Source: Candidatus Woesearchaeota archaeon
Lineage (GTDB): Archaea; Nanobdellota; Nanobdellia; Pacearchaeales; GW2011-AR1
Length of the DNA stretch: 46,342 nucleotides
Direction: 5' to 3'
NCBI GenBank assembly: GCA_964360755.1
Contig: CAYHYE010000002.1
Location: forward strand, 1 to 46,342
In this document: positions 18,041 through 45,440 of the stretch, piece by piece
Numbering within the stretch: position 1 is the stretch's first letter
How the letters are laid out: each line of letters starts with the position of its first letter
Program-made: the position numbers and the translations under genes
The notes under the pieces: model-generated
The model's database searches: none
What the model was told of the DNA's origin: nothing
What the model saw: the letters and a program-made list of their open reading frames with translations, nothing else

Positions 18041-20848
18041 ATGGAAGGCGAATCTATTATCAAAGATAATATATCAATATCGAGAGAAAATAATTTAACT
18101 AATAATTCTAGTGAAATTAAAGATGTTATAGAAATAAGAAAAGAGAGTTTAATTAATTTTTTTAAAAAAAGCAGTGATTGGATTTTCTATTTTTTATTAT
18201 TAATAATAGTTTTTATTACAGTATTTATTCGCACTAGAAATATTCCAAATTTAAAAGATATTACAACAAATAGTTGGACTCTAGGTCCTGATTTGGACCC
18301 ATTTTTATTTTTAAGATGGGCTGAATATATAGTTGAAAATGGTGAATTATTTAGTGTAGATAATATGAGATATGTACCATTAGGGTATAATACTGGCGGG
18401 GAATTTAAATTATTGTCTTATTTAATCGCTTGGTTTCATCAAATTATTTCATCTTTATCTTTAAGTAGTGATGTTACATATTCTGCTATAATTTTTCCGG
18501 TTTTTATGTTTGCAATAACAGTTGTGGCTTTTTATTTTTTTATAAATGAGGTTTTTAGAGATGTTTTTAGTGACAAAAAATATCAAAAAATAATCGCACT
18601 TATTTCAACTTTTTTTCTTGCTGTAATACCAGTTATTTTACCAAGAACTATTGCAGGCATTCCAGAAAAAGAATCTGCAAGTTTTTTGTTTATCTTTTTA
18701 TCTTTTTATTTTTTCATAAAGTCATTTAAATCAAATGAAGCTAAATTTATTGTAATTTATAGCATTCTTGCTGGAATTTCTACAGCAGTTTTAGGCCTTA
18801 TTTGGGGAGGAGTAACTTTTGTATTTATGACAATAAGTATATCAATGTTTATAATTTCAATAGCTGGTTTTATTAATAAAAAGAAGTTTTTGTCATATAC
18901 TATTTGGATATTTATTTTTACTCCAATAATGATGTTTTTCTCAACTAGGTATTTTGATCCTATTAATCCAATCGGAAGTATCATAAGCTTTATTTCTTCA
19001 ACATCAACAATTCCAATATTTGGAACATGGTTTTTTATACTATTTGACTTATTCTTATATGATAAAGCAAGTAATTTAGCTATTATAAATAATATACATA
19101 AGAATTATCATTTTCCAAAGGAGTTAATTTCACTGTTAATAGTAATAATATTTTTATTTATAGTCTCTATATTTGTAAATGGTATAAATTTTATTCCAGA
19201 TCAAATAAAAGATATTTTAAGCCAATTAGTCCATCCATTTGCAACAGATAGATTTTCTCTTACTGTTGCTGAAAATAAGCAACCATATTTTGACGAATGG
19301 GCAGGTGCTTTTGGGCCTATTTATAAAGGTGTGCCTTTTTTCTTTTGGCTTTTTATTTTAGGATCTGTATTATTATTTTACAGATTGGTTAGAAACTTTG
19401 AAATAAGAGATAGAAAAATTATAACTTTATTTTATTTTATTTTTATTCTATCTTTAATATTTAGCAGATATTCGCCAAATAGTTCTTTAAATGGAGACAG
19501 TATAAATAGTTTATTTATTTATTTTGGGGGCATGGTTCTTTTTTTTGCATACATTGTTTTCTTGTGGTTTAAATACAATAAAAAACATGAGAAGGAAAGG
19601 CTGAATTTAGATTTTAGTCTTATTTTATTATTTTCATTATTTTTTATAACTATTGTTGCTGCTAGGGGAGGAGTTAGATTAATGATGGTTTTAGTTCCAT
19701 CCTCAAGTGTAATGGCTAGTTATTTATTAGTCTCTATATTTAAAAATACCAAAGATGCAAAGGACGAGGTTTTTAAAGCATTTTTATTTGCAGTTGTTTT
19801 GCTAATTTTATTCATGACTATTTTTTCTGGATATACTTTCTATAAAATTAGTGAAGGGCAAGCTTATTTATTTTACCCTAGCCAATATAATCAACAATGG
19901 CAAAGTGCAATGGCTTGGGTTAGGAATAGTACTCCAGAAAATTCTGTATTTGGACATTGGTGGGATTATGGCTATTGGGTTCAAAGCATTGGAAAACGAG
20001 CTACTATTTTAGATGGTGGAAATGCAATAGTTTATTGGGATCATTTAATGGGAAGAACAGTATTGACTGCTAGCGATGATTCTAAAGGATTAGAATATTT
20101 ATATGCACATAATACAACACATTTCTTAATAGATTCTACAGATATAGGAAAATATTCTGCTTATGCCAGTATAGGGTCTGGAATAGAATTAGATAGAATT
20201 AGTTATTTACCAACTTTTATAATAAATAATAAAGAAACTCAAGAATTAAATGATAGCAGCCTAGTTTATGCTTATAGCGGATCTTCTTCATTAGATGAAG
20301 ATATAGTATTTGAAGAAAATGCATCGAAAAAAATATTTATAAAAGAAAATTCTGGAATATTTAAAGTATTTATCCAAGAAAATCCTGATGGAAAGTTATT
20401 ACAGCCAAATATTCTAATTTTGGAAAACAATGGGCAACAAAGTTTAGTTCCAATTAGATTTTTATATTATGATGGAAAATTAATTGATTTTAATTCTGGT
20501 ATTGAAGCTGGTTTTTTTACATTTGATTTGTTAAATCAAGAAAGTTCTGGGTTAAGTTTAGATCGTAAAGGTGCTGGAATTTATTTAAGTAAAAGAACTG
20601 TAAATTCTTTTCTTGCTAGGAAATATTTATTTGGAGATGAAAGTAACTTTAAACTAGTACATAGCGAAGACGCTATATTAGTGGAAGAAATTAGATTACA
20701 AGGGGCAGATATTGGAGAATTTGTTTACTTTCAAGGAAATATATTCGGTCCAATAAAAATTTGGGAAATAAAATATCCTAAAAATATCGTGTTTAATAAG
20801 AGTTATTTGGAATTAGATTATCCAGATAAGAGGCTTAGGTGGGGGTAA
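18041..20848 (+). CDS. aglB: dolichyl-(mono/di)phosphooligosaccharide-protein glycosyltransferase AglB (STT3 family)
   Basis: 935 aa. It has a multi-TM N-terminal half and a soluble C-terminal domain. The STT3 signature WWDYGYW is encoded at 19958-19978 (aa 640-646). Confidence 0.92.
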   Translation: MEGESIIKDNISISRENNLTNNSSEIKDVIEIRKESLINFFKKSSDWIFYFLLLIIVFITVFIRTRNIPNLKDITTNSWTLGPDLDPFLFLRWAEYIVENGELFSVDNMRYVPLGYNTGGEFKLLSYLIAWFHQIISSLSLSSDVTYSAIIFPVFMFAITVVAFYFFINEVFRDVFSDKKYQKIIALISTFFLAVIPVILPRTIAGIPEKESASFLFIFLSFYFFIKSFKSNEAKFIVIYSILAGISTAVLGLIWGGVTFVFMTISISMFIISIAGFINKKKFLSYTIWIFIFTPIMMFFSTRYFDPINPIGSIISFISSTSTIPIFGTWFFILFDLFLYDKASNLAIINNIHKNYHFPKELISLLIVIIFLFIVSIFVNGINFIPDQIKDILSQLVHPFATDRFSLTVAENKQPYFDEWAGAFGPIYKGVPFFFWLFILGSVLLFYRLVRNFEIRDRKIITLFYFIFILSLIFSRYSPNSSLNGDSINSLFIYFGGMVLFFAYIVFLWFKYNKKHEKERLNLDFSLILLFSLFFITIVAARGGVRLMMVLVPSSSVMASYLLVSIFKNTKDAKDEVFKAFLFAVVLLILFMTIFSGYTFYKISEGQAYLFYPSQYNQQWQSAMAWVRNSTPENSVFGHWWDYGYWVQSIGKRATILDGGNAIVYWDHLMGRTVLTASDDSKGLEYLYAHNTTHFLIDSTDIGKYSAYASIGSGIELDRISYLPTFIINNKETQELNDSSLVYAYSGSSSLDEDIVFEENASKKIFIKENSGIFKVFIQENPDGKLLQPNILILENNGQQSLVPIRFLYYDGKLIDFNSGIEAGFFTFDLLNQESSGLSLDRKGAGIYLSKRTVNSFLARKYLFGDESNFKLVHSEDAILVEEIRLQGADIGEFVYFQGNIFGPIKIWEIKYPKNIVFNKSYLELDYPDKRLRWG

Positions 20849-26458: not shown

Positions 26459-27546
26459 GAATATTAATTTTAAGTTGGCGATGTTTAAAAAATCCTGATT
26501 CTGGAGGGTCAGAGTTATATTTTCATGAATTATCAAAAAGATGGGCAAAAAATGGACATGAAATTGTTTGGTTCTCACCACAATTTTCTGGAGGATTAAG
26601 AGAAGAATATTGTGATGGAATAAAAATAATAAGAAAAGGAAATAGGTTTAGTGTTTATTTACATTCTTTTTTAAAATATGTAAAAAATGATTTTGGAAAT
26701 TTTGATGTAATAATAGATGTTGAAAATGGTATACCATTTTTTTCTCCTTTATATATAAAAAAGGGTGAGATTTTTCTTCATATACAACATATTCATAAAA
26801 ATGTATGGGTTAAGGAGATGCCTATACATTTAGCTATTATTGGAAAATTTTTAGAATCAGTGATTATGCCATTAATATACAAAAAAAATAAAATTATAAC
26901 TATATCAAATAGTTCTTTTGAAGAAATAAAAAATGATAAATTGTCTAATAATGATGTTTATATAGTTAATCCAGGTATAGAGTTCTATAAATTTAAAAAA
27001 TATAAAAAAAATAAAAAGGCGACAGTCTTATTTTTAAATAGGATTAAAAAATATAAAGGTATAATGCATTTATTAATGGCTGCAAAAGAGTTAAAAAATC
27101 AAAATATTGATTTTTGGATTGTTGGTTCTGGGGAGTATCTTGATAAAGCTGTTGATTATGCAAAAAGAGAAAAATTAAATAATGTAATTTTTTTTGGTAA
27201 AGTTGATGAAGAAAGAAAAAAAGAAATTATGCAAAAATCTTGGATTTTAGTTAACCCTAGTTATAAAGAAGGTTGGGGTATAGTTAACATAGAAGCAAAT
27301 TATTTTGGCATTCCAGTTATAGGCAGTAATGTTTCTGGCATTAAAGACTCTGTTATAGATAGAAGAACTGGTTTATTATTTGAATATGGAAATCATAAAG
27401 AATTAGCAAATAAAATAAACTTTTTAGTTGATAATTACAAAGAAAGAAAATATATGGGAAAGGAAGCAAAGATTTGGGCAAAAAAATTTGATTGGGATTC
27501 TAAAGCTATGGAATATTTGAAAATTTTAGAAAAATTTAAAAATTAG
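26455..27546 (+). CDS. GT4 (GT-B) glycosyltransferase
   Basis: The C-terminal EGWGIVNIEANYFGIPVIGSNVSGIKDSV matches the E-x7-E GT4 signature. ATGA overlap with the upstream GT2. Confidence 0.8.
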   Translation: MRILILSWRCLKNPDSGGSELYFHELSKRWAKNGHEIVWFSPQFSGGLREEYCDGIKIIRKGNRFSVYLHSFLKYVKNDFGNFDVIIDVENGIPFFSPLYIKKGEIFLHIQHIHKNVWVKEMPIHLAIIGKFLESVIMPLIYKKNKIITISNSSFEEIKNDKLSNNDVYIVNPGIEFYKFKKYKKNKKATVLFLNRIKKYKGIMHLLMAAKELKNQNIDFWIVGSGEYLDKAVDYAKREKLNNVIFFGKVDEERKKEIMQKSWILVNPSYKEGWGIVNIEANYFGIPVIGSNVSGIKDSVIDRRTGLLFEYGNHKELANKINFLVDNYKERKYMGKEAKIWAKKFDWDSKAMEYLKILEKFKN

Positions 27547-29038
27547 TTTTGTAAATAACAACTAGCGGTTTTTCTTCAGGGAAAGTTTTAACTAATTCTA
27601 GCCCATATTTTTGAGTATCAATATTATAGGCCCACCAGTCATTGTTTAATGGAGAATCGAATATAGAAATAACTACGTATTTTGGCCTAATTTCCGTAAA
27701 ATTAGATTTGAAGTCTTTTTCATCTATAGGAATGGAATAACTTTCCCTTTCAGAATAATAAGTATTTTGTGGATGGCTTCTTATCATAATTTTATCTTCT
27801 GATAGACTATTTTCCTTTATCCAAATCCCTGCATCTTTAAGTTGAGAGAAACTGTCTATTTTTGACTTAATTATCGAATCAGATGTTTTAATCATTTGAT
27901 AACTACCAAAAACTATTATCAAGAAAACAATTAACATTGCTAACTCCCCATTATATTTAATAAAAAATTTATAGATAGTTAATATTGAAACACTTATTAT
28001 GAAAAATATTGCGGGAAAAGTCATAAAGATATATCTGTCCTCGTAGTGGCTGACAAAAAATCCAAAATAAATTAGTGGAATAATTAACCAAATTAATGTA
28101 AAAAATTTCATTGCTAGTTTATTATTCTTTTTTTTCAAAATTAAATCAAATCCTAAAATAATATCCATAAATAAAAGAAAACCAAAAATAAAAACAATCA
28201 GCAAAACCCATTGAAAATAAAGCGGAAATGTCAATAAATATTGCTTTAGTTGCAATATTCCTAAAGAGATATTTGTTCCTGAAACAGCTCCACCGCCTGC
28301 AACTTTAACTGTATATAGTGGGTCCCCAAATTTAATTTTTGACCAATAAAAATATATCAAGCCTATAATCATTCCAAGTATTAAAGATATCCAATAATCC
28401 TTATTCTTCAAGGCTGATAATTTTTCTGTAAAAGCAACATAAATAACTAAAATAACAAAAAAGAAAAATACTGGAAATCTTATTAATGTGTTAACTGCAA
28501 GTAATGGAACAACAAGCCAGATTAATTTTTTCTTTTCTGTAAGAAAAAAATAAAATGCTAGTAGCCCTATAGTAAGTGTTAAAACATCATTCATAATTCT
28601 CATAGAGTAGAATAAATTAATATAAACAAAAGAATAAAGAAGTGCTGAAATTAATGCTACTTTTTCATCAAACATTTTTCTTCCAACAAGATAAATAAGA
28701 TAAATAGAGAAAACAGATACAATTATTAAAGAAAATCTAATTGCTGTCTCATCAAGTCCTAAAAAATAAAATCCAGATAAAATTATTGGAAATAAAATTG
28801 GTCTGCCATACCAAAAGCCAGTTTCTGGTGTTCCTAAAGCAATATTTTTAGCTTTTAACAAATATTCTGCTTCATCCCACCATACTGCTTGATCTTTTGT
28901 TAAAAAGAAATAATAAAGCCGTATAATAAAGGCAAATATTAAAATTAATATCAAGACTGTTTTATGCCAATCATAAAAAGTAATTTCTTCTTTTTTTATT
29001 CCTAATTTTTCTTGAGACAATTCTTCATTATTTTCCAT
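27536..29038 (-). CDS. GT-C fold membrane glycosyltransferase (ArnT/PMT-like)
   Basis: 500 aa. The WWDEAEY motif in the first external loop is the GT-C DE..Y type. There are more than 10 TMs and a small C-terminal soluble domain. Confidence 0.7.
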   Translation of the reverse strand: MENNEELSQEKLGIKKEEITFYDWHKTVLILILIFAFIIRLYYFFLTKDQAVWWDEAEYLLKAKNIALGTPETGFWYGRPILFPIILSGFYFLGLDETAIRFSLIIVSVFSIYLIYLVGRKMFDEKVALISALLYSFVYINLFYSMRIMNDVLTLTIGLLAFYFFLTEKKKLIWLVVPLLAVNTLIRFPVFFFFVILVIYVAFTEKLSALKNKDYWISLILGMIIGLIYFYWSKIKFGDPLYTVKVAGGGAVSGTNISLGILQLKQYLLTFPLYFQWVLLIVFIFGFLLFMDIILGFDLILKKKNNKLAMKFFTLIWLIIPLIYFGFFVSHYEDRYIFMTFPAIFFIISVSILTIYKFFIKYNGELAMLIVFLIIVFGSYQMIKTSDSIIKSKIDSFSQLKDAGIWIKENSLSEDKIMIRSHPQNTYYSERESYSIPIDEKDFKSNFTEIRPKYVVISIFDSPLNNDWWAYNIDTQKYGLELVKTFPEEKPLVVIYKTNF

Positions 29039-29074: not shown

Positions 29075-30055
29075 TTATATAAATTTTAAAACTTCATCAA
29101 CTGAAATGCTTTTTGTTAAAGCTTCGTCATATTGATCCATTTTAGCAGGGAAAAAGTCAAAAAGCATTGGTGATGTTATTTTTTTAAGCATACTATATCC
29201 CTCTATTTCATAAGAAGAAGTGCAAAAAAATAAACCAATAACTATTTTATTTAATCCTAGGGCTACATGAAGGGCTAAAGTATCTGCACAAATTATTATA
29301 TTACATATATTAATTAAGGCAAAAAAATCTTTTAAAGAATTTGAAGTATTTTTTGAATATATTTTAATGTTATTATTTAAAAGGTCTTTTTCTATTTCAT
29401 TCATTTTTTCTTTTTCATCCAATCCACCAAGCAAAATTATTTCATAACCTCTTTCTTTAACTTTCATAATAAATTCTATGATATTATATTTATGCCAGGC
29501 TTTTGATGGCCATTTTTTGGATGAACCGATGTTAAGTCCTAAAATTTTTTTATTTTTTAAATTATTTTCAATTAAAAAATTATTTATTATATGTTTAGAA
29601 TTTTCTGGAATAAATAGGCTCATTTTCTGTTTTTTCCATGGTAATTTACATATTTCAAAAATCATTTCTTGATATGTTTTTCTGTTAGATTTTTTTAAAT
29701 CATCATCGAAAACAGTGTTCAAATAATAATTTGCCTCTTCATTAAAAGCAGATGGAAATCCACCATTATCATAATAACCAAATTTTTCTTTAGCATTTAT
29801 TTTTAAAGCTAATTTAGTCGCTTCTTCTTCAATATCTAAACTATAAAGAATATCAAATTCCCCTAAATTATCAAGATCTAAAGGTAATGTCAGTATTTTA
29901 TTTATATAATGATTTCCTTCCAAAATCTCATAAGATGATTTTATAGTTATCCAAATTATTTTAGAATCTGGATATTTTTCTTTAACAGCTAATAAGATTG
30001 GTGTGGTTCTAACTACATCGCCTAAAGCCCCTAATTTAATTATACAGATTTTCAT
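29075..30055 (-). CDS. glycosyltransferase family 9 (heptosyltransferase family)
   Basis: N-terminal KICIIKLGALGDVVRTTPIL, central NIGSSKKWPSKAW and C-terminal CADTLALHVALGL. These are the three hallmark GT9 (RfaC/RfaF-like) blocks. Confidence 0.8.
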   Translation of the reverse strand: MKICIIKLGALGDVVRTTPILLAVKEKYPDSKIIWITIKSSYEILEGNHYINKILTLPLDLDNLGEFDILYSLDIEEEATKLALKINAKEKFGYYDNGGFPSAFNEEANYYLNTVFDDDLKKSNRKTYQEMIFEICKLPWKKQKMSLFIPENSKHIINNFLIENNLKNKKILGLNIGSSKKWPSKAWHKYNIIEFIMKVKERGYEIILLGGLDEKEKMNEIEKDLLNNNIKIYSKNTSNSLKDFFALINICNIIICADTLALHVALGLNKIVIGLFFCTSSYEIEGYSMLKKITSPMLFDFFPAKMDQYDEALTKSISVDEVLKFI

Positions 30056-30058
30056 GAT

Positions 30059-30072
30059 AAGGTTTAAAACTA
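30059..30072 (+). promoter_or_regulatory. putative TATA promoter for the 30092 gene pair
   Basis: AAGGTTTAAAACTA is centred about 26 nt upstream of ATG 30092. Confidence 0.35.
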
Positions 30073-30076
30073 TAAG

Positions 30077-30091
30077 CTTTATTTAAAGATT
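30077..30091 (-). promoter_or_regulatory. putative TATA promoter for the GT9 gene
   Basis: The minus strand reads AATCTTTAAATAAAGC, centred about 29 nt upstream of the ATG at 30055. It shares the 36-bp divergent spacer with the 30059-30072 element. Confidence 0.35.
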
Positions 30092-30514
30092 ATGAAAGCA
30101 TATATAGCTGGAAAAATAGGAACTGAAATTGAAAAAGAAGAACTTGAAAAAATTGATAAAATATCTAAAGAATTAGGATTTGGAACATTTCTTCCACATA
30201 GAGATGTAGGAGTTGCAAAAAATATGGATGACGTAACAAGAATATTTGAAGGTGATATAATTAAAGGTTTTAAAGATATTAAATTAGTTATAGCTAATTT
30301 AAACGGTTTGCATGTTGGAGCAGGAACAGCTTGGGAGTTAGGATATGCTTATGCAAATAAGATTCCAGTAATTGGATTAAAAACAGATGAGTCTATCGGA
30401 GAAGCGTTTGACCAATTAAGCGCTATTTTAATTGGTAGTATGAAAATTGTAACAAGTTTTGACGAATTAAAAAAGGAACTTATAAAGTTTAAAAACAAAT
30501 GGAAAATAAATTAA
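30092..30514 (+). CDS. nucleoside 2-deoxyribosyltransferase-family (NDT/Rcl-like) protein
   Basis: KAYIAGKI start and GAGTAWELGYAYANKIPVIGL block (conserved Glu in G-T-x-x-E-x-G-Y). 140 aa with a Rossmann-like pattern. Confidence 0.65.
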   Translation: MKAYIAGKIGTEIEKEELEKIDKISKELGFGTFLPHRDVGVAKNMDDVTRIFEGDIIKGFKDIKLVIANLNGLHVGAGTAWELGYAYANKIPVIGLKTDESIGEAFDQLSAILIGSMKIVTSFDELKKELIKFKNKWKIN

Positions 30515-30984
30515 AGCAGATAGGTGATTTAGAAAAAATTGTTGATACCTTAAGACAAGATAAGAAATTAATCGTAACAACAAATGGAACTTTTGATATA
30601 CTTCATTATGCACATGTTATCTTACTTCAAAAAGCAAAAAATCAAGGAGATGTTTTGATTGTTTTATTAAATAGTGATGCCTCTGTTAAAAAAAATAAAG
30701 GTGAAAAAAGACCAATAATCAACCAATATGAAAGAGCTATGATGCTTTCATCATTACAATGTATAGATTATGTAACAATTTTTAATGAAGACACTCCATT
30801 AAAATACTTGGAAATTATAAAACCTGAGTTTCATGTTAAGGGCGGGAGTTTTATTAAAGAAAGAATAAATCAAGAAAAAAATCTAGTTGAAAGAAATAAA
30901 GGAGTTTATATTGTTTTTGAACTAGAAGAAGGGTTTTCAACAACTGGTATAATTGATAAGATTATGGCTTCTTATAATAGTTAA
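30499..30984 (+). CDS. heptose-1-phosphate nucleotidyltransferase, HldE/RfaE domain-II-like (cytidylyltransferase fold)
   Basis: NGTFDILHYAHV...LNSDASVKKNKGEKRPI...NEDTP...HVKGG...GFSTTGIIDKI runs colinear with the C-terminal adenylyltransferase domain of E. coli HldE, compared from memory. 16-nt overlap with the upstream NDT-like gene. Confidence 0.7.
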   Translation: MENKLKQIGDLEKIVDTLRQDKKLIVTTNGTFDILHYAHVILLQKAKNQGDVLIVLLNSDASVKKNKGEKRPIINQYERAMMLSSLQCIDYVTIFNEDTPLKYLEIIKPEFHVKGGSFIKERINQEKNLVERNKGVYIVFELEEGFSTTGIIDKIMASYNS

Positions 30985-30989
30985 GTAAT

Positions 30990-31895
30990 TTAATCCAAAG
31001 GTTTAGTAGAATTTATTTCAGTTTCTCTCCAACCATCAGAATAACTTTTTTTAGACTTTAACTCTTTAAATGCTTTATAATAAATATATAGCCTAGCAAA
31101 ATACATTTCAATTGTCCAGATAAACTCTTTAAAACTTTTGGGCTGTGAAAGTGCAAAAATAGCTCCATATTTAATTTCATTCCAGAAAGATTTTGTTCTT
31201 GGAATATCTGGAGCTATTTTATTAAGATTTTCATGTGATTTTATGTTTCTTACTTTCTGATTTATATAATCTTTCCAGTTATCCGGGTTCTTCACATAAA
31301 CTTCTGCTTTATCACAATAAAATATTTTATAGCCTTTTTCCCAAAATAAATAAGGAATTATACTATCTTCTGAGGTATCTAATGGAAATTCTTTTATAAC
31401 TCCGTTTCTTATAGCAAATAAATATCCAGAACATTCAAAGAATTTTTTTTCATCTGAAAGTTTTTTTCTTACTTTATCTATTCCTGCAAATAATACTGAA
31501 AACCAATATCCATATTTTGTATCTTTTTTGTCTATTGAAACAGGTTTTCCAGTTATGCATCCTATTTCTTTATTTTCAAAAGCTTTTATTATTTCATTTA
31601 AACAATTATCTGAAACATATACATCGCCGTCGGTAAAAATAAGCAAATCATTTTTATTATCATTGTATAATCTTTCCAATAATAAATTAAGAGCATAACT
31701 CTTACCTTCGCCTGGATCAAGGAAAAAATCAACTCTTTTATCTTTAATTTGTTTTTTTAAATATTTTTCAACTTCTGGAAAAGGATCAACGACAATTATT
31801 TTAAACTTTTGTTTCATTTTTTGATTTAAAAATACTTTAATAGCCCTTTCAGTTGCTTTTGGTTCATTATAAGAAGTTATAATAATTGTAATCAT
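30990..31895 (-). CDS. GT2 glycosyltransferase
   Basis: ITIIITSYNEP start, FTDGDVYV (DxD) motif, 301 aa. Confidence 0.75.
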   Translation of the reverse strand: MITIIITSYNEPKATERAIKVFLNQKMKQKFKIIVVDPFPEVEKYLKKQIKDKRVDFFLDPGEGKSYALNLLLERLYNDNKNDLLIFTDGDVYVSDNCLNEIIKAFENKEIGCITGKPVSIDKKDTKYGYWFSVLFAGIDKVRKKLSDEKKFFECSGYLFAIRNGVIKEFPLDTSEDSIIPYLFWEKGYKIFYCDKAEVYVKNPDNWKDYINQKVRNIKSHENLNKIAPDIPRTKSFWNEIKYGAIFALSQPKSFKEFIWTIEMYFARLYIYYKAFKELKSKKSYSDGWRETEINSTKPLD

Positions 31896-32002
31896 TTTAA
31901 CAAACCTCCAGCGGGTTTCTTAGAGTTCCAGCAACCTTTCATTTTAACAAACCTCCAGCGGGTTTCTTAGAGTTCCAGCAACCTTTCATTTTAACAAACC
32001 TC
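31892..32002. repeat. perfect 47-bp direct tandem repeat (2 full copies plus a 13-nt third start and a 4-nt lead-in)
   Basis: Unit TTTAACAAACCTCCAGCGGGTTTCTTAGAGTTCCAGCAACCTTTCAT occurs at 31896-31942 and 31943-31989 with 100% identity. 31990-32002 repeats the first 13 nt. On the minus strand each unit carries GGAGGT-N8-ATG. Confidence 0.95.
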
Positions 32003-32182
32003 AAAGGGATATTCTGATGGCCTTATTATAGCTATTTTTTCTTTCTCAGAAGAAATTTCTAGGCGACATTTTTTAGATCCTTGTTTTCCAATATCAGAAA
32101 TTTCAATATTTTCCACTTTCCAAATTTTTCCTGAGATTTTTATTTTATCGTCTTTTACAAGATCTTTAGCTTTCTTTTTCAT
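31991..32182 (-). CDS. small protein resembling the N-terminal SH3/KOW-like domain of aIF5A
   Basis: 63 aa from ATG 32182; the track's 32197 start is TTG. ...KISGKIWKVENIEISDIGKQGSKKCRLEIS...PFEVC aligns by eye with the aIF5A segment ...IDG.PC.IVDISVSKPGKHGGAKARV...KVEVP. The C-terminal OB domain is absent. Confidence 0.4.
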   Translation of the reverse strand: MKKKAKDLVKDDKIKISGKIWKVENIEISDIGKQGSKKCRLEISSEKEKIAIIRPSEYPFEVC

Positions 32183-32191
32183 AGCAGATAG

Positions 32192-32219
32192 GAACAAATT
32201 AAACTTATAAAGTTTGTTC
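32192..32219. promoter_or_regulatory. 28-bp near-perfect palindrome containing a shared TATA box for two divergent genes
   Basis: The sequence is GAACAAATTAAACTTATAAAGTTTGTTC. The 7-bp arms GAACAAA/TTTGTTC are extendable by G:U and A:T pairs. Its centre (about 32205-32206) is 23-24 nt from ATG 32182 (-) and 27-28 nt from ATG 32233 (+). Confidence 0.5.
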
Positions 32220-32232
32220 TATTTTAGTTTAA

Positions 32233-32946
32233 ATGAAAAATAAGAAAAAAGCTATAATTTTATGCTCTGGTGGATTAGATAGTGTTGTGACTGCCCACTA
32301 TGTTAAAAATAGACTGAAATATAAAAAATTAATTATCTTATTTTTTAATTATGGACAAAGAACTGTGAAACAGGAAAGGTATTTTTCTAAAAAATGTGCT
32401 AAAAATTTAAATGCTGAGTTTGAAGAAGCAATTTTACCAGAATTAAAAAAATTATCAACTTCATTGTTAAATTCTAATGTAAAAGCAAAAACAATTAAGA
32501 GAAATCAATTAAAAAATACGTCAAAAGAATCATTAAAATGGTATGTTCCTTGCAGAAATTTAATTTTTCTAAGTTATGCTTTGGCTCTTGCAGAATCGTT
32601 ATATATAAAAAATAAAGAAAAATATGGTATTTTTATTGGTTTTAAAAATGAGGGCAAAGAATTTTATCCAGATGCAACATCTAAATTTATAGAACAAATC
32701 AATAACCTTCAAAAAACAGTGACTAACAAAGGCATAAAAATTATTGCTCCTTTAATTAATAAAGATAAAGAAGAGATTATCAAAATAGGTAAAAAATTAG
32801 ATATTAATTTTAATGAGACATATAGTTGTTATTCAGGAGCTAAAACTAATAATATTCATTGTGGCTATTGTTTGTCATGTAGATTAAGAAAAGAAGGATT
32901 TTACTGGTCTGGGATAAAAGACCCAACAATTTATGCAAAAAAATAA
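32233..32946 (+). CDS. queC: 7-cyano-7-deazaguanine (preQ0) synthase QueC
   Basis: AIILCSGGLDSVV PP-loop, NYGQR, WYVPCRNLIFLSYA, and the C-terminal Zn cluster SCYSG...HCGYCLSCRLR. Confidence 0.85.
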   Translation: MKNKKKAIILCSGGLDSVVTAHYVKNRLKYKKLIILFFNYGQRTVKQERYFSKKCAKNLNAEFEEAILPELKKLSTSLLNSNVKAKTIKRNQLKNTSKESLKWYVPCRNLIFLSYALALAESLYIKNKEKYGIFIGFKNEGKEFYPDATSKFIEQINNLQKTVTNKGIKIIAPLINKDKEEIIKIGKKLDINFNETYSCYSGAKTNNIHCGYCLSCRLRKEGFYWSGIKDPTIYAKK

Positions 32947-36552: not shown

Positions 36553-36571
36553 CAATGATAATGTGGCTTTC

Positions 36572-37777: not shown

Positions 37778-38377
37778 ATGAAAGACACCAATGCAACAGT
37801 AATTGTAGATTTAAATCAAACTGAAGAAGAAATACTAAAAAATTTACATAAAGATGCTAGATGGGGAATTGGAAGAGCTAAAAAGGAAAATTTGAATGTT
37901 GAAATTTCTAATAACAAAAAAGATTGGGAAGAATTCTATGAAATTTATAAAAATACAATCTCTAAAGGCGGAGCAAATATAGAAACTTTAGAGCATGTTA
38001 AAGAGCATGGGCAGATATTCTTTACATGTAAAAAAAATGGTAAACTTGTAGCAGGAGCTACACTTGAAATAATTAAAGGACAACCTCCAAGACTTTCAAG
38101 AAATGCTTCATTAAATGAATATCAAAAAATGCAACCAAATAATTTATTATACTGGGAGTGTATAAAATGGAGCAAATCTAATGGTTATAAAAGATTAGAC
38201 CTTGGAGGGTATCAAATTAATCCAATTGGACATATAAAAGGGGTTAATAAATTCAAGGAAAAATGGGGCAGAATAGTTTATTATTATAAAGATTATCCTA
38301 TACATATTGCAATAGGAAGAAAGCTTTTTAGAAAATCTAAGCTTGCAAGGATTATAAAAAATAAAATTAGAGGATAA
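37778..38377 (+). CDS. GNAT-fold FemAB-like / Acetyltransf_6-type acyl- or aminoacyl-transferase
   Basis: EEILKNLHKDARWGIGRAKKENLNVE and NLLYWECIKWSKSNGYKRLDLGG blocks resemble single-domain FemAB-family proteins from exopolysaccharide loci. Confidence 0.55.
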   Translation: MKDTNATVIVDLNQTEEEILKNLHKDARWGIGRAKKENLNVEISNNKKDWEEFYEIYKNTISKGGANIETLEHVKEHGQIFFTCKKNGKLVAGATLEIIKGQPPRLSRNASLNEYQKMQPNNLLYWECIKWSKSNGYKRLDLGGYQINPIGHIKGVNKFKEKWGRIVYYYKDYPIHIAIGRKLFRKSKLARIIKNKIRG

Positions 38378-42845: not shown

Positions 42846-43757
42846 TTAATTAATATTTCGATATGAATCTGCAGCTTCTTCAAAGTCTTTTAATGTAATA
42901 TGGGTCATTGGATGAGATAATGAATTGCCTATTATCACATTATTAGTTTTAATAGTTCGTAGAGTTTTTTTAATTTCTGGGATATTGTTTAAGCCTTCTA
43001 CAATTTTCTTAGGAATTGTTATAACTTGTGGTCTACATAAAGCGATTTTGTAAATGTCTTCCGGTAACCTAATACTTCCAACAATTAAAGAACTACTAGT
43101 ATCATCAAGTTTTTTAGCAACATAAGCTATTTGTTCTAATGTTCTACTCCAAGCTTGATCAAGAAATTTATCTTTTTCTACTTTTATAATATCTTTCCAA
43201 TTTCCATTATTGCTAATTGTATTTAAGCTTCCTGTTGCAAGCTCAACTATGTGGCCATCTAACATTCTATTTGCAAATAAACTTACATAAGTAGCTCCAG
43301 CTTTTGCAGCTTCCAATGCTTGATATGGAGTCATACAAGCTGTAACATTTGTTTTTATTCCTATCTTTGAAAGATATTCAGTAGCAATAATACCACCTCT
43401 AGATATTGGTATTTTTACAACAACTCTAGGACTTAAACTTGAAAGAACATTTGCTTGTTGTAATAAAGTTAATTTTACATCATCTACTCTTGAATCTAGA
43501 TCAGATAAATTAATTCCATTATGTGGAGGTTTAGTTTTATTTGGTTCTCTTAAATCAGTTTCAAGACTTACATCTATATTAGTATATCTTTCTAAAATAG
43601 ATTTACATGCTTGTTCAAAATTTGTAATTCCTGCGTTTTTCATTATTCTGGGATTTGTTGTTATACCGTCATTTACTCCTTTAGAAAAACAATAGTCTAT
43701 TTCAGAATGATCCGCTGTATCTGCAAAAAATTTAATATATGATTTCATTATTCCCAT
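42846..43757 (-). CDS. transaldolase / fructose-6-phosphate-aldolase family protein
   Basis: FFADTADHSEI...GVNDGITTNPRIM N-terminal block and VVVKIPISRGG (Schiff-base Lys context). At 303 aa it is longer than the minimal TalC/FSA type. 26-nt overlap with gmhA. Confidence 0.7.
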   Translation of the reverse strand: MGIMKSYIKFFADTADHSEIDYCFSKGVNDGITTNPRIMKNAGITNFEQACKSILERYTNIDVSLETDLREPNKTKPPHNGINLSDLDSRVDDVKLTLLQQANVLSSLSPRVVVKIPISRGGIIATEYLSKIGIKTNVTACMTPYQALEAAKAGATYVSLFANRMLDGHIVELATGSLNTISNNGNWKDIIKVEKDKFLDQAWSRTLEQIAYVAKKLDDTSSSLIVGSIRLPEDIYKIALCRPQVITIPKKIVEGLNNIPEIKKTLRTIKTNNVIIGNSLSHPMTHITLKDFEEAADSYRNIN

Positions 43758-44457
43758 TAATATTTTGTTTTTTTAGTATATCATTCAATTGAATTTTAAT
43801 TATAGGGTCTTCAGATTCATCTGCTAGAGATTTTATTTTATTAATTACATCTTTTTTTGAGTAATCATTAATTAAATCTACTAGTCTAAAAATGATTAAA
43901 TGCTGTAAAACTCCATGAAATCCTTCAACATGTGGAGTAGAATCTTTTGGTACAACAATACAAGCATCAGCCATCTCTTTTAATTTTCCACCATTAAAGC
44001 CAGATAATCCTAAAATTTTAGCTCCCCTTTCTTTTGCTAATTGCATTGCTTGGACAATATTACCAGACCATCCTGAACCACCATGAACTGAAATTAATAG
44101 AACTACATCGTCTTTGTCCAATAAAGTATTTAATAATCCAGTATAAGCATTGTCCCATCCAGAATCATTTGTCCAAGCAGTTAATGAAGCTACATTATCA
44201 TTTAAACAAATAGATTTAAATCCCTTTACTTTACTAATTTCTTTCATAGAACTGGTATTTGCAACAGTTTTTAGTAAATCTCCTGTAAAATGAGATGCTG
44301 TGCTTGAGGATCCACCATTTCCAACAGTAATAATTTTATTATTATTTTTCCAGGCATCAAATAATATTTTTATAAATTTATCAATGTCTTCTTTATTGAT
44401 AATTTGAGCTATTTCTTGAGTTTCTTTCAAATATTTTTCTATATATTCTTTATTCAT
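43732..44457 (-). CDS. gmhA: SIS-domain phosphoheptose (sedoheptulose-7-P) isomerase, GmhA-like
   Basis: KIITVGNGGSSSTASHFTGDL, NDSGWDNAY, DVVLLISVHGGS, GLSGFNGGKL..ADACIVVP and EGFHGVLQH run colinear with E. coli GmhA blocks, compared from memory. Confidence 0.7.
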   Translation of the reverse strand: MNKEYIEKYLKETQEIAQIINKEDIDKFIKILFDAWKNNNKIITVGNGGSSSTASHFTGDLLKTVANTSSMKEISKVKGFKSICLNDNVASLTAWTNDSGWDNAYTGLLNTLLDKDDVVLLISVHGGSGWSGNIVQAMQLAKERGAKILGLSGFNGGKLKEMADACIVVPKDSTPHVEGFHGVLQHLIIFRLVDLINDYSKKDVINKIKSLADESEDPIIKIQLNDILKKQNINGNNEIIY

Positions 44458-45440
44458 CTTACATCCAGCATAATTTTACTTCCATCCATATCAAATCTAA
44501 AAGGAACGTACATTAATCCTTTACTAGTCATTGCTCTAATAAACTCTTTTATATTTGTATCACAATAAAACAATAAAAATCCTCCACCTCCAGCCCCCAT
44601 AATTTTCCCACCAAGGGCTCCATTTTTTAAACCAATCTCATACAAATTATCTATTCTTTCATCAGACATTTTATCTGATGTTTTCTTTTTTGTTTCCCAA
44701 TGTAAATTCATTAATCTTCCAAATTTTTTTGTATCGCCTTTTTCAAGTGTATTTTTTATATCAAGGCCTATTTGCTTAATTTGTTTCATGCTCTCTAGTT
44801 TAGCTTCATCACTTAACACGGATTTGCTTTGATCTTTTAAAATTTCTATAGAATCTCTTATTATTCCTGTAAAAAACATATGTAAATTAACTTCTAAATC
44901 CCTAATAGTTTCATATGATAAATTTAATGGACTTACAAAAACAGTTCCTTCTTTATTTATTTTTAAATGATTTAACCCGCCTATTGCTGATGCATATTGG
45001 TCTTGTTTTCCAATAGGCTCTTTTAAGATTTCAATTTCTATTTTAGCAGCTTCTTCTGCTAAAGTTTTAGAGCTTACATTTTCTCCTTTATATGCGTGAA
45101 GGGCTTTTAGCAACCCAACTGTAAATGCTCCAGAACTACCTAAACCAGAACTTCCAGGAACTTCAGATATTGTAGAGATTTCAAGAGTGTCATTAATATT
45201 GAGAAGTTTTAAAGCCTCTCTAACTCTATCATTCTCTATTTCGTTAATTTTATCAACATTCTCTGTTTTTGAATAAGCTATCCTATATTTATCATGAAAA
45301 TGTCTTCTTGATACTGTTACATAAATATATTTTGAAAAGGCTGCAGTTACTAGTTCTCCACCAAATTTTGGATAAAAAAATGGTAAATCAGTGCCACCTC
45401 CACCTAAAGGAAGTCTTAAAGGAGTTTTAGTAATTATCAT
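44454..45440 (-). CDS. GHMP-family sugar kinase, HddA-like (D-glycero-D-manno-heptose-7-P 1-kinase candidate)
   Basis: TKTPLRLPLGGGGTDLP, PGSSGLGSSGAF, GKQDQYASAIGG and GAGGGGFLLFY motifs. 4-nt overlap with gmhA. Confidence 0.65.
   Translation of the reverse strand: MIITKTPLRLPLGGGGTDLPFFYPKFGGELVTAAFSKYIYVTVSRRHFHDKYRIAYSKTENVDKINEIENDRVREALKLLNINDTLEISTISEVPGSSGLGSSGAFTVGLLKALHAYKGENVSSKTLAEEAAKIEIEILKEPIGKQDQYASAIGGLNHLKINKEGTVFVSPLNLSYETIRDLEVNLHMFFTGIIRDSIEILKDQSKSVLSDEAKLESMKQIKQIGLDIKNTLEKGDTKKFGRLMNLHWETKKKTSDKMSDERIDNLYEIGLKNGALGGKIMGAGGGGFLLFYCDTNIKEFIRAMTSKGLMYVPFRFDMDGSKIMLDVR

What the first reader, a model, noticed from the sequence alone, without database searches (positions are those of the whole stretch)
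29075..30984. GT9 heptosyltransferase-family gene divergent from an overlapping NDT-like / HldE-domain-II pair
Seen: a GT9 protein (ALGDVVRTTPIL, SSKKWP and ADTLALHVALGL blocks) shares a 36-bp divergent promoter spacer with two co-oriented genes that overlap by 16 nt. The first is a nucleoside-2-deoxyribosyltransferase-family protein (GTAWELGYAYANKIPVIGL). The second is a 161-aa protein colinear with the adenylyltransferase half of bacterial HldE/RfaE (NGTFDILHYAHV, NSDAS, EDTP, VKGG, STTGII).
Established: GT9 enzymes use ADP-heptose to build LPS cores and glycosylate some autotransporters. HldE domain II makes ADP-D-glycero-beta-D-manno-heptose.
Inference: together with the tal-gmhA-kinase operon 12-15 kb away, this points to a heptose-containing envelope glycan or glycolipid in an archaeon, probably built from laterally acquired bacterial parts.
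Tight coupling of an NDT/Rcl-fold protein to a heptose nucleotidyltransferase is not part of any heptose pathway I know. Speculatively, it could stand in for a missing step, edit or salvage the nucleotide moiety, or regulate the pathway.
Basis: partly seen in the sequence, partly recalled or inferred. Interest (0 to 1): 0.7.

Follow-up and report, generated by a model that had tools for sequence, protein, structure and literature searches.

The report
Archaeal heptose genes beside a salvage enzyme
A tiny DPANN archaeon carries a likely heptose-adding glycosyltransferase and an ADP-heptose-making enzyme inside its surface-glycan gene island. The nucleoside-salvage-type gene wedged between them looks like an inherited neighbour, not a new pathway step.

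Summary
There is a GT9 gene at 29075-30055 (-), then a 36-bp spacer. An NDT-family gene follows at 30092-30514 (+), and an HldE-domain-II/HldC-type heptose nucleotidyltransferase (HENase) at 30499-30984 (+) overlaps it by 16 nt.

The heptose reading is well supported. The HENase scores far better against rfaE_dom_II than against TagD or FAD synthetase models. The GT9 keeps the HepI Asp13, Lys192 and Asp261 equivalents. Its orthologs in related Pacearchaeota/Woesearchaeota genomes are fused to, or share operons with, GmhA, GmhB, HldA-type kinase, HENase and NUDIX.

The proposed NDT-HENase coupling is not a general feature.
- Among 73 species-level relatives, the HENase directly follows NDT in 2. 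These belong to a single HENase clade, which fits one old insertion.
- An HENase lies within 10 kb in 15 of the 73, in at least five arrangements centred on GT9.
- The constant feature is the block PMT2-GT9<>NDT-GT2-QueC. The unrelated pair GT2-QueC is conserved just as strongly as GT9-NDT.

NDT keeps a Tyr/Asp/Glu triad typical of 2'-deoxyribosyl enzymes. Its wider family is fused to nucleoside or nucleotide kinases. It is most likely a salvage enzyme. Archaeal HENases and an archaeal heptose N-glycan are already known, so interest is modest.

The parts
29075..30055 (-). GT9-family glycosyltransferase, probably an ADP-heptose-dependent heptosyltransferase.
   Evidence: It matches PF01075 at 55.3 bits. 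The AF2 model has pLDDT 96, and its top Foldseek hits are GT9 structures: 3tov (TM 0.79), WaaF 1psw (0.70) and WaaC (0.63-0.66). The equivalents of HepI D13, K192 and D261 are D13, K185 and D258, which are invariant or nearly so in the family. Orthologs are fused to NUDIX, GmhA, GmhB, HENase or GT2.
30056..30091 (.). 36-bp divergent spacer with two TATA-like boxes. Each box lies about 26 nt from the opposite start codon, which would give interleaved promoters for two leaderless mRNAs (inferred).
   Evidence: The sequence is. The same 36-bp architecture, TTTAAAAC...TTT(T/A)TTTAA, is seen in 8 related species. The function is inferred from archaeal promoter geometry and was not tested.
30092..30514 (+). 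NDT/DNPH1-fold protein (nucleoside 2-deoxyribosyltransferase family) with an intact catalytic triad. It is probably a deoxynucleoside or deoxynucleotide salvage enzyme.
   Evidence: It matches PF05014 at 45.8 bits. The family profile hits solved NDTs at 8e-17 and 5e-15. The AF2 model has pLDDT 90.4, and its top Foldseek hit is D. psychrophila NDT at TM 0.73-0.80. Y4, D55 and E82 are invariant. G76 replaces the Asp of NDTs and the Ser of DNPH1/MilB.
30499..30984 (+). Monodomain HldC/HldE-domain-II-type heptose-1-phosphate nucleotidyltransferase (HENase). It overlaps the NDT gene by 16 nt.
   Evidence: TIGR02199 scores 164.7 bits, against 48.3 for TagD and 25-27 for FAD synthetase models. The best PDB match is 5x9q at 88.5 bits, which I recall to be B. 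pseudomallei HldC. The HYAH and FSTT motifs are present. Orthologs sit next to rfaE_dom_I-type kinases, GmhA and GmhB.
30990..31895 (-). GT2 glycosyltransferase, convergent on the NDT-HENase pair and a constant member of the block.
   Evidence: It matches PF00535 at 58.2 bits. It is present in 64 of 73 loci. In L167 it is fused to the GT9 ortholog.
31991..32197 (-). Conserved 68-aa ORF upstream of the GT2 gene, function unknown.
   Evidence: tblastn finds it in 62 related loci at 53-75% identity. It has no Pfam or PDB match.
32233..32946 (+). QueC (7-cyano-7-deazaguanine synthase). It is a syntenic neighbour, used here as a control pair for conservation of gene order.
   Evidence: It matches PF06508 at 165.9 bits. 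It lies within 300 bp of the GT2 gene in 49 of 57 loci.
27536..29038 (-). PMT_2 (GT-C, ArnT/PMT-like) membrane glycosyltransferase downstream of GT9.
   Evidence: It matches PF13231 at 45.7 bits. It recurs downstream of GT9 in most related loci.
42846..45440 (-). Operon of a GHMP kinase (HddA-like, 44454-45440), a GmhA-like SIS isomerase (43732-44457) and a transaldolase-family protein (42846-43757). It is a sedoheptulose-7-P-to-heptose-phosphate module.
   Evidence: NF049969 HddA scores 188.5 bits (cut-off 600), TIGR00441 gmhA scores 97.6 bits (cut-off 209), and PF00923 scores 112 bits.
18041..20848 (+). AglB/STT3 oligosaccharyltransferase at the head of the glycosylation island (context).
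   Evidence: It matches PF02516 at 50.9 bits. It is followed by a GT4-family phosphotransferase (PF00953), a flippase-like Polysacc_synt protein, and GT2, PMT and GT4 genes.

Best explanation
The window is a complete 46-kb contig of a DPANN archaeon of the Pacearchaeota/Woesearchaeota type. Positions 18-35 kb hold a surface-glycan island: AglB, a Dol-P-type priming transferase, a flippase-like protein, and several GT2, GT4 and GT-C enzymes. Within the island, the GT9 protein most likely adds heptose from ADP-heptose to a lipid-linked glycan at the cytoplasmic face. The 161-aa protein is the HldC-type nucleotidyltransferase that makes the NDP-heptose donor, most likely ADP-heptose. In one lineage this gene was inserted just downstream of the resident NDT-family gene. 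It is now probably co-transcribed and translationally coupled with it (11-16 nt overlap) from the compact bidirectional promoter shared with GT9, which places donor synthesis and transfer under one control region. The NDT-family gene itself is most likely a 2'-deoxyribosyl N-glycosyl enzyme for deoxynucleoside or deoxynucleotide salvage. It would be a long-standing syntenic resident of the block, not a step in heptose metabolism. Shown here: gene identities, folds, catalytic residues, gene-order statistics and fusions. Inferred: the donor and acceptor, co-transcription, promoter layout and the salvage role.
For: Identity of the HENase: rfaE_dom_II scores 164.7 bits against 48.3 for TagD, and the best PDB match is 5x9q.

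Identity of the GT9: Pfam match, GT9 fold, and the D13, K185 and D258 equivalents of HepI D13, K192 and D261.

Link between GT9 and heptose:
- Orthologs at 50-58% identity are fused to NUDIX (13 of the top 120 clusters), SIS/GmhA (P0178), HAD/GmhB (P0189), HENase+NUDIX (L064) and GT2 (L167).
- Other orthologs head operons of the form GT9-GmhA-HldA(PfkB)-HENase-GmhB.
- The PfkB kinases in those operons score 236-256 bits on rfaE_dom_I.

HENase gathers around GT9. Of 15 loci out of 73 that have an HENase domain, 14 place it within 2.8 kb of GT9, in at least five arrangements.

NDT-HENase is a derived arrangement. It occurs in 2 of 73 species loci plus L165 and L171, and all of these HENases form one clade in an NJ tree.

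Block synteny is general. GT9<>NDT lie within 300 bp in 52 of 62 loci, NDT-GT2 in 45 of 64, and GT2-QueC in 49 of 57.

NDT as a salvage enzyme:
- It has the NDT fold.
- Y4, D55 and E82 are invariant and match the DNPH1 Y24/D80/E104 triad, where Tyr versus Phe sets the deoxyribose preference (PMC10603095).
- Relatives are fused to dNK- or thymidylate-kinase-like kinases and to PfkB kinases that are not HldE-like.
- NDT also occurs outside the block in housekeeping contexts.
- L167 has GT9-GT2 and HENase but no NDT.
Against: - NDT sits between GT9 and GT2, two genes that are themselves functionally linked, since they are fused in L167. It also shares a conserved 36-bp bidirectional promoter with GT9. 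A functional tie therefore cannot be excluded.
- The archaeal clade has changed two substrate-pocket motifs. It has AGK in place of AGPLF, and Gly at the position six residues before the catalytic Glu, where NDTs have Asp and DNPH1/MilB have Ser. Its substrate may be unusual.
- The contig has no HldA-type kinase and no GmhB. Its only heptose kinase candidate is a GHMP (HddA-like) enzyme, so the donor pathway in this genome is incomplete as seen.
- The HENase score is below the TIGR02199 trusted cut-off (164.7 against 181.5).
- No biochemical data exist for any of these proteins.
Confidence: 0.62

Rival explanations
1. The NDT-family protein is a true functional partner of the GT9 heptosyltransferase. 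One version copies the septacidin route: heptose is put on a nucleotide base and an N-glycosidase then removes the (deoxy)ribose phosphate. Another version has NDT break down the nucleotide by-product of the transfer, working with the NUDIX domain found fused to many GT9 orthologs.
For: The divergent GT9<>NDT pair is kept within 300 bp in 52 of 62 loci, with a conserved 36-bp promoter class. The pair survives when GT9 is fused to GmhA or GmhB, and it is present in the distant locus L083, where NDT identity is 38%. In septacidin biosynthesis, ADP-heptose is transferred to N6 of AMP and the ribosyl-5-phosphate is then removed, by SepE and SepF (PMC9978623). The archaeal clade has an altered substrate pocket.
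Against: The functionally unrelated GT2-QueC pair is conserved just as well. No NDT fusion to any heptose or glycosyl enzyme appeared among the top hits. The fusions that were found are to nucleoside or nucleotide kinases. The invariant Tyr4 favours 2'-deoxyribose substrates, not ribo-AMP or ADP-heptose. NDT occurs without GT9 nearby, and GT9-GT2 plus HENase occur without NDT. The protein families of SepE and SepF could not be checked here.
Confidence: 0.13
2. This genome runs a hybrid heptose pathway. The HddA-like GHMP kinase (normally alpha-anomer, GDP-heptose route) would feed the HldC-type nucleotidyltransferase (normally beta-anomer, ADP-heptose route), giving an unusual NDP-heptose.
For: The 46-kb contig holds GmhA-like, GHMP kinase, HENase and GT9 genes. 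It has no PfkB/HldA kinase, no HddC-type NTP_transferase and no GmhB.
Against: The contig is only a part of the genome. In relatives the GHMP kinase is fused to an NTP_transferase (L049, L058), while orthologous monodomain HENases sit next to rfaE_dom_I-type PfkB kinases (L014, L021). Each module therefore has its own partner.
Confidence: 0.1
3. The 161-aa enzyme and the GT9 do not handle heptose in this lineage. The nucleotidyltransferase would activate another phospho-compound, and the GT9 would use another donor.
For: Scores are below the equivalog cut-offs: TIGR02199 gives 164.7 against 181.5, and the HepI/II/III models give 60-66 bits against 135-185. Most loci (58 of 73) have no HENase within 10 kb of GT9. 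Three of seven sampled HENase orthologs lie in unrelated contexts.
Against: The GT9 orthogroup shows repeated fusions and operons with GmhA, GmhB, HldA-type kinase and HENase. The margin of rfaE_dom_II over every other cytidylyltransferase model is large.
Confidence: 0.08

Closest known systems
HldC / HldE domain II heptose-1-phosphate nucleotidyltransferases (HENases). Monodomain archaeal examples were described by Tang et al. 2024, as summarised in PMC11573728 and PMC11461863.
   Same: The size is the same (161 aa). The cytidylyltransferase fold signature HxxH and the C-terminal xSTT motif are present. The best family model is rfaE_dom_II and the best solved relative is 5x9q. Orthologs lie next to GmhA, HldA and GmhB.
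   Different: Position 5 of the STT motif is Phe, and it is Phe or Tyr throughout the orthogroup. The Arg ('STTR5') that Tang et al. link to CTP/UTP promiscuity is absent. In this genome the gene is uncoupled from any PfkB kinase and overlaps an NDT-family gene instead.
Bacterial GT9 heptosyltransferases (WaaC/HepI, WaaF/HepII, Veillonella GT9 3tov, TibC).
   Same: It has the GT-B fold with GT9 structures as top structural matches, and it conserves the Asp13, Lys192 and Asp261 equivalents.
   Different: It is archaeal, with no lipid A/Kdo acceptor available. It fits none of the HepI, HepII or HepIII equivalog models. It lies in an AglB-linked island, and orthologs carry C-terminal NUDIX, GmhA, GmhB, HENase or GT2 fusions.
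Nucleoside 2'-deoxyribosyltransferases (D. psychrophila NDT 7o62, C. thermalis NDT, B. psychrosaccharolyticus NDT 6evs) and the nucleotide N-glycosidases DNPH1/Rcl and MilB.
   Same: The fold is the same, and the catalytic Tyr, Asp and Glu are conserved.
   Different: The archaeal clade has Gly six residues before the catalytic Glu, where NDTs have Asp and DNPH1/MilB have the phosphate-binding Ser. It has AGK in place of AGPLF, and an invariant LPHRD loop. Its substrate is unassigned.
Septacidin early steps (ADP-heptose, SepE and SepF).
   Same: The septacidin pathway combines ADP-heptose synthesis, transfer of heptose, and an N-glycosidic cleavage that removes ribosyl-5-phosphate (PMC9978623). 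That set of activities resembles a locus holding HENase, GT9 and an NDT-fold protein.
   Different: The protein families of SepE and SepF could not be verified here. The archaeal locus sits in a protein and lipid glycosylation island, and no other septacidin tailoring genes were looked for here. NDT Tyr4 argues for deoxyribose substrates.
Thermoplasma acidophilum N-glycan containing a heptose (reviewed in PMC11407970).
   Same: It is a precedent for heptose in an archaeal N-linked glycan.
   Different: It is a different phylum. No gene-level link to GT9 or HENase is stated in the passage read.

Membership tests
GT9 glycosyltransferase (CAZy GT9 / PF01075) | A significant match to the family model above the curated cut-off. 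| tested here: met
   PF01075 scores 55.3 bits against a cut-off of 22.
GT9 glycosyltransferase (CAZy GT9 / PF01075) | A GT-B fold closest to solved GT9 enzymes. | tested here: met
   The AF2 model has pLDDT 96. Foldseek's top nine hits are all GT9 structures: 3tov, 1psw, 2gt1, 2h1h, 2h1f and 6dfe.
GT9 glycosyltransferase (CAZy GT9 / PF01075) | The catalytic Asp13, the phosphate-binding Lys192 and Asp261 of E. coli HepI. The residue roles are taken from my knowledge of the WaaC literature. | tested here: met
   The profile alignment to 6dfe/2gt1 pairs D13 with D13, K192 with K185 and D261 with D258. D13 and K185 are invariant and D258 is at least 90% conserved in 47 orthologs.
GT9 glycosyltransferase (CAZy GT9 / PF01075) | Use of ADP-heptose as donor. 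| not testable with these tools
   The evidence is only indirect: fusions and operons of orthologs with GmhA, GmhB, HldA and HENase.
LPS heptosyltransferase I/II/III equivalogs (TIGR02193/02195/02201) | A score above the equivalog cut-off. | tested here: not met
   The scores are 66.1, 62.9 and 60.4 bits, against cut-offs of 185.3, 134.6 and 170.2.
HldE domain II / HldC heptose-1-P adenylyltransferase (TIGR02199) | A score above the trusted cut-off of the equivalog-domain model. | tested here: not met
   The score is 164.7 bits against a cut-off of 181.5. It is the best model by more than 100 bits over TagD (48.3), PPAT (32.5) and FAD synthetase (25-27).
HldE domain II / HldC heptose-1-P adenylyltransferase (TIGR02199) | The nucleotidyltransferase HxGH-type motif and the C-terminal (F/L)xxGxSTT motif. 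| tested here: met
   The sequence has FDILHYAHV and LEEGFSTT. The motif definition comes from PMC11573728 and PMC11461863.
HldE domain II / HldC heptose-1-P adenylyltransferase (TIGR02199) | Genomic association with the other heptose enzymes (GmhA, HldA kinase, GmhB). | tested here: inconclusive
   Orthologs and relatives are associated with them. On this contig only a GmhA-like gene and a GHMP kinase are present, 12-15 kb away. There is no PfkB kinase and no GmhB.
STTR5-type promiscuous HENases (Tang et al. 2024) | Arg at position 5 of (F/L)xxGRSTT. | tested here: not met
   The window has Phe. Among 120 orthogroup clusters the counts are F 84, Y 26, L 4, I 1 and R 0.
Nucleoside 2-deoxyribosyltransferase family (PF05014) | A family-model match together with the NDT fold. 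| tested here: met
   PF05014 scores 45.8 bits against a cut-off of 28.8. The family profile hits 7o62 at 8e-17. Foldseek gives TM 0.73-0.80 to 7o62.
Nucleoside 2-deoxyribosyltransferase family (PF05014) | The catalytic Glu nucleophile with its Tyr and Asp partners. | tested here: met
   Y4, D55 and E82 are invariant in 46 sequences and align to the Tyr, Asp and Glu of solved NDTs. The triad definition comes from PMC10603095.
Nucleoside 2-deoxyribosyltransferase family (PF05014) | Asp six residues before the catalytic Glu, as seen in the solved NDTs aligned here. | tested here: not met
   The archaeal clade has the invariant sequence G76-A-G-T-A-W-E. The solved enzymes 7o62, 7m5h and 6evs, and the bacterial cousins L076-L082, have Asp at this position.
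DNPH1/MilB nucleotide N-glycosidases | A phosphate-binding Ser six residues before the catalytic Glu (DNPH1 S98, MilB S97). | tested here: not met
   The window has Gly76 at this position. The residue roles come from PMC10603095.
HddA D-glycero-D-manno-heptose-7-P kinase (NF049969) | A score above the equivalog cut-off, and adjacency to gmhA. | tested here: inconclusive
   The score is 188.5 bits against a cut-off of 600, but it is the best hit by 96 bits. The gene overlaps the gmhA-like gene by 4 nt.
Septacidin-type SepE/SepF pair | Homology of the GT9 to SepE and of the NDT-like protein to SepF. | not testable with these tools
   The SepE and SepF sequences and family assignments were not available. 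Only the reaction scheme is documented.

The most novel reading that the evidence does not exclude
The NDT-fold protein, whose substrate pocket is altered in the archaeal clade, could be a dedicated partner of the archaeal GT9 heptosyltransferase. It might act as a septacidin-like N-glycosidase on a heptosylated (deoxy)nucleotide, or it might clear the nucleotide by-product. In that case GT9<>NDT would be a conserved two-enzyme module in Pacearchaeota/Woesearchaeota, with the HENase recruited into the NDT transcript in one lineage.
Probability: 0.1. Interest if true: 0.7.

Novelty: new member of a known kind. Interest (0 to 1): 0.35.

Why it matters
Commentaries on Tang et al. 2024 state that archaea make NDP-heptose but that the reason is unknown (PMC11573728). 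This locus and its relatives offer a concrete candidate for where the heptose goes. A GT9 orthogroup that is widespread in DPANN archaea is embedded next to AglB and is repeatedly fused to heptose-biosynthesis enzymes. That makes an archaeal heptosylated surface glycan directly testable. The result also removes a tempting but weak idea, that an NDT-fold protein is a new step in the heptose pathway. It does so by showing that the adjacency is an inherited, lineage-specific gene order within a generally syntenic block.

Tried and rejected
1. Conserved NDT-HENase adjacency. I scanned 185,579 GTDB species genomes with NDT as query, which gave 80 loci. The HENase directly follows NDT in only 2 of 73 archaeal loci.
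2. The converse scan. Metagenome contigs were scanned with HENase as query, giving 80 loci. The partners are PfkB kinase and GmhA, and NDT appears only in L083.
3. Fusion (Rosetta-stone) evidence for NDT with heptose enzymes. None appeared among the top 120 homologs of NDT, GT9 or HENase. A profile search of 1.84 billion representatives found NDT fusions only to dNK- or thymidylate-kinase-like kinases and to PfkB kinases that are not HldE-like. I first suspected those PfkB parts might be HldA, but NCBIfam says they are not.
4. Bacterial NDT cousins (Acidimicrobiia, Anaerolineales). Their contexts have no tie to heptose genes: a CoA-transferase, MsrA and CinA-HD, plus a divergent GT2 gene in L076. 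There is no GT9.
5. NDT copies outside the block. Their neighbours are generic housekeeping genes and give no functional hint.
6. A search of the window for HldA/PfkB, NUDIX, GmhB-HAD and HddC-type NTP_transferase found none.
7. The septacidin analogy. The reaction scheme was confirmed from PMC9978623, but the protein families of SepE and SepF could not be retrieved, so it remains a lead.
8. RNA genes and tRNAs in the window: none found.
9. I first thought GxGTxxE might signal a LOG-like protein. Foldseek and profile searches place the protein with NDTs, so I dropped the idea.
10. AlphaFold-multimer co-folding of NDT with HENase was not available.


Full report
**Observation.** One search lists three ORFs at exactly the reported coordinates. 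They are 29075-30055 (-) 326 aa, 30092-30514 (+) 140 aa, and 30499-30984 (+) 161 aa. The divergent spacer is 36 bp and the overlap is 16 nt. All quoted peptide blocks are present. Pfam assigns the three to Glyco_transf_9 (55.3 bits), Nuc_deoxyrib_tr (45.8 bits) and CTP_transf_like (68.6 bits).

An identical HENase protein is on record on a contig of exactly 46,342 bp, so the window is evidently a whole contig. Its G+C content is 23-30%, and the locus itself sits at about 25%, which is no anomaly. The contig carries an archaeal ribosomal-protein/SecY region and AglB/STT3. The nearest relatives of its proteins are Pacearchaeota, Woesearchaeota and Nanoarchaeota MAGs.

**What the three genes are: the nucleotidyltransferase.** The 161-aa protein scores 164.7 bits on TIGR02199 (rfaE_dom_II). 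It scores 48.3 on TagD, 32.5 on PPAT and 25-27 on FAD synthetase models. Its best solved relative is 5x9q at 88.5 bits, deposited as a putative cytidylyltransferase. I recall that entry to be Burkholderia pseudomallei HldC.

The C-terminal motif is LEEGFSTT. Across 120 orthologous clusters, position 5 is F (84), Y (26), L (4) or I (1), and never R. Arg at that position is what Tang et al. associate with CTP/UTP promiscuity (PMC11573728, PMC11461863). ADP-heptose is therefore the default prediction. Those commentaries note that the Arg is not strictly required.

**What the three genes are: the GT9.** The GT9 model has pLDDT 96. Its first nine Foldseek hits are all GT9 structures: 3tov at TM 0.79, WaaF at 0.70 and WaaC at 0.63-0.66. 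A family profile aligns D13, K185 and D258 with HepI D13, K192 and D261, and these residues are invariant or nearly so. The second refutation test also fails. The protein does not reach any HepI, HepII or HepIII equivalog cut-off.

**What the three genes are: the NDT-like protein.** Its model has pLDDT 90.4. It is closest to true NDTs, with 7o62 at TM 0.73-0.80, followed by C. thermalis NDT, PDT and DNPH1. The family profile hits 7o62 at 8e-17 and 7m5h at 5e-15.

**Does the gene pairing recur?** I scanned one genome per GTDB species with the NDT protein and fetched 80 loci with 10-kb flanks. I annotated them by tblastn and blastp against the window's genes and against reference heptose enzymes. 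Seventy-three loci are archaeal and non-redundant.

The conserved pattern is PMT2(-) GT9(-) <> NDT(+) GT2(-) [68-aa ORF(-)] QueC(+).
- GT9 is present in 66 loci and is divergent-upstream of NDT in 62. The gap is at most 300 bp in 52 of these, with a median of 50.5 bp, and the commonest exact gap is 36 bp (7 loci).
- An HENase domain lies within 10 kb in 15 loci. It directly follows NDT on the same strand in 2 (L005 and L075, with an 11-nt overlap).
- Look-ups of HENase orthologs added two more cases. L165 has an HENase identical to that of L075. L171 has a toxin-antitoxin module inserted between GT9 and NDT.
- In a rough NJ tree without support values, the 'after-NDT' HENases (window, L005, L075/L165, L171; 57-75% identity) form one clade. 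This fits a single old insertion that was then inherited.

Other orthologous HENases take several positions:
- convergent on GT9 (L003, L004, L169);
- inverted after NDT (L014, L021);
- divergent from a GT9-GT2 fusion with no NDT present (L167);
- inside GT9 operons (L011, L015, L024, L044, L048, L059, L062, L064);
- in unrelated housekeeping contexts (L166, L168, L170).

The pairing is therefore not unique, so the third refutation test fails in its literal sense. But it is a lineage-specific variant and not a conserved module.

**What HENase and GT9 are really linked to.** I also conditioned on HENase, using 80 metagenome loci. There the immediate partners are PfkB kinases and GmhA, and NDT appears only in L083, which carries the same archaeal block.

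Orthologs of the window's GT9, at 50-58% identity, are fused in several ways:
- to NUDIX at the C-terminus, in 13 of the top 120 clusters;
- to SIS/GmhA (P0178);
- to a HAD phosphatase that JGI annotated as GmhB (P0189);
- to HENase plus NUDIX (L064, 655 aa);
- to the neighbouring GT2 (L167, 634 aa).

In L011, L062, L044, L059 and others the GT9 gene heads an operon with GmhA, a PfkB kinase, HENase and GmhB. Those PfkB kinases score 236-256 bits on rfaE_dom_I. Of the 15 loci with an HENase, 14 place it within 2.8 kb of GT9. This is strong comparative evidence that the GT9 orthogroup consumes the product of the ADP-heptose pathway.

The island around it holds AglB, a PF00953 phosphotransferase, flippase-like proteins, and GT2, GT4 and GT-C enzymes. 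That suggests a lipid-linked surface glycan as the acceptor, which is an inference.

**Is NDT part of it?** Adjacency alone does not say so. The pair GT2-QueC has no evident functional relation, yet it lies within 300 bp in 49 of 57 loci. That is as conserved as GT9<>NDT at 52 of 62. The whole block is syntenic across the clade.

Evidence against a role in heptose metabolism:
- NDT is never fused to heptose or glycosyl enzymes among the best hits of four large searches.
- The multi-domain relatives that exist are fused to dNK- or thymidylate-kinase-like P-loop kinases, or to PfkB kinases resembling ribokinases or nucleoside kinases. The PfkB parts score at most 36 bits on rfaE_dom_I.
- NDT also occurs away from GT9, next to a P-type ATPase, an H+-PPase, or L15e and MetRS.
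- Bacterial cousins show no tie to heptose genes.
- The invariant Y4/D55/E82 triad matches DNPH1 Y24/D80/E104. In this fold a Tyr at that position, as opposed to Phe, goes with deoxyribose preference (PMC10603095). That argues against ribo-substrates such as AMP or ADP-heptose.

Evidence that keeps a role open:
- NDT lies between two functionally linked transferases.
- It shares a conserved 36-bp spacer with GT9. The spacer has two TATA-like boxes, each about 26 nt from the opposite start codon.
- The archaeal clade has replaced AGPLF by AGK.
- It has also replaced the Asp (in NDTs) or Ser (in DNPH1/MilB) six residues before the catalytic Glu with an invariant Gly.

**Pathway completeness in this genome.** The contig has a transaldolase-family gene, a divergent GmhA-like SIS protein and a GHMP kinase. 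The kinase's best match is HddA, at 188.5 bits against a cut-off of 600. The contig has no PfkB/HldA kinase, no NUDIX, no HAD-type GmhB and no HddC-type NTP_transferase.

In relatives, GHMP kinases of this kind are fused to an NTP_transferase-CBS module (L049, L058). The monodomain HENase orthologs sit next to HldA-type kinases (L014, L021). Two separate modules are therefore more likely than a hybrid, and the missing genes are probably on other contigs. This is unresolved.

**Comparison with what is known, and novelty.** Archaeal HENases have been described and shown to be active (Tang et al. 2024, via PMC11573728 and PMC11461863). A heptose occurs in the Thermoplasma acidophilum N-glycan (PMC11407970). 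I found no paper in the held library that links GT9 or ADP-heptose to DPANN archaea.

The finding is therefore a new member of known kinds. It adds a useful hypothesis: a DPANN GT9 orthogroup is the consumer of archaeal ADP-heptose. I give a true functional partnership about 10-13%. The septacidin SepE/SepF chemistry (PMC9978623) is the most interesting analogue, and I could not test it.

**Verdict.** Interest is 0.35.

Noticed in passing
window 31991-32197 (-): A 68-aa ORF lies directly upstream of the GT2 gene and is divergent from QueC. It is conserved at 53-75% identity in 62 related loci. It has no Pfam or PDB sequence match. Its GKQGSKK loop reminded me of the a/eIF5A hypusine loop, but that is from memory only.
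   Followed up: partly
L011 6760-8142, L062 7542-8915, L064 7906-9873, L163 568-2106, L164 2420-4084, L167 5002-6906: Orthologs of the window's GT9 are fused to NUDIX, HENase+NUDIX, HAD/GmhB, SIS/GmhA or the neighbouring GT2. The role of the frequent NUDIX domain is unknown. It might hydrolyse ADP-heptose or ADP.
   Followed up: partly
L046 12934-13824; L083 2449-3777; L017 283-1878; L058 17924-19957; L049 17621-19657; L013 146-2269: The related archaea carry unusual heptose-module fusions: RpiB-HENase, PfkB-cupin, PfkB-SIS, NTP_transferase-CBS-GHMP kinase, and epimerase-NTP_transferase-HAD.
   Followed up: partly
window 30056-30091 and the equivalent spacers in L006, L022, L027, L031, L053, L060, L063, L017: A conserved class of spacers, 36 bp (37 bp in L017), has two TATA-like boxes. 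Each box is next to one start codon and about 26 nt from the other. This suggests interleaved promoters for two leaderless divergent genes.
   Followed up: partly
window 32233-32946 (+): QueC is a fixed member of the glycosylation block across the clade. No other 7-deazaguanine genes were seen nearby.
   Followed up: no
window 37778-38377 (+) and 36563-37702 (+): A FemAB-family hit (38.6 bits) appears in an archaeal glycan island. Next to it is a 379-aa ORF with no Pfam or NCBIfam match.
   Followed up: no
L068 (DAOTCN010000002.1) and protein P0201: These records are labelled 'Candidatus Paceibacterota bacterium', yet L068 carries the archaeal PMT2-GT9-NDT-GT2-QueC block and P0201 is a 55%-identical GT9 ortholog. 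The label is probably a taxonomic mix-up between Pacearchaeota and Paceibacterota.
   Followed up: no
L001 7595-9168; L171 4029-4552; L011 8325-8750: Toxin-antitoxin-type genes (ParE, HEPN/nucleotidyltransferase, PIN) are repeatedly inserted into the otherwise syntenic block, including between GT9 and NDT.
   Followed up: no
L166 6270-7492 and L168 4296-5492: HENase orthologs have a second conserved location: after a DNA_alkylation-repair-family gene and before TruB/Cbf5, near RuBisCO and ribosomal protein genes. That is far from any glycosylation gene.
   Followed up: no
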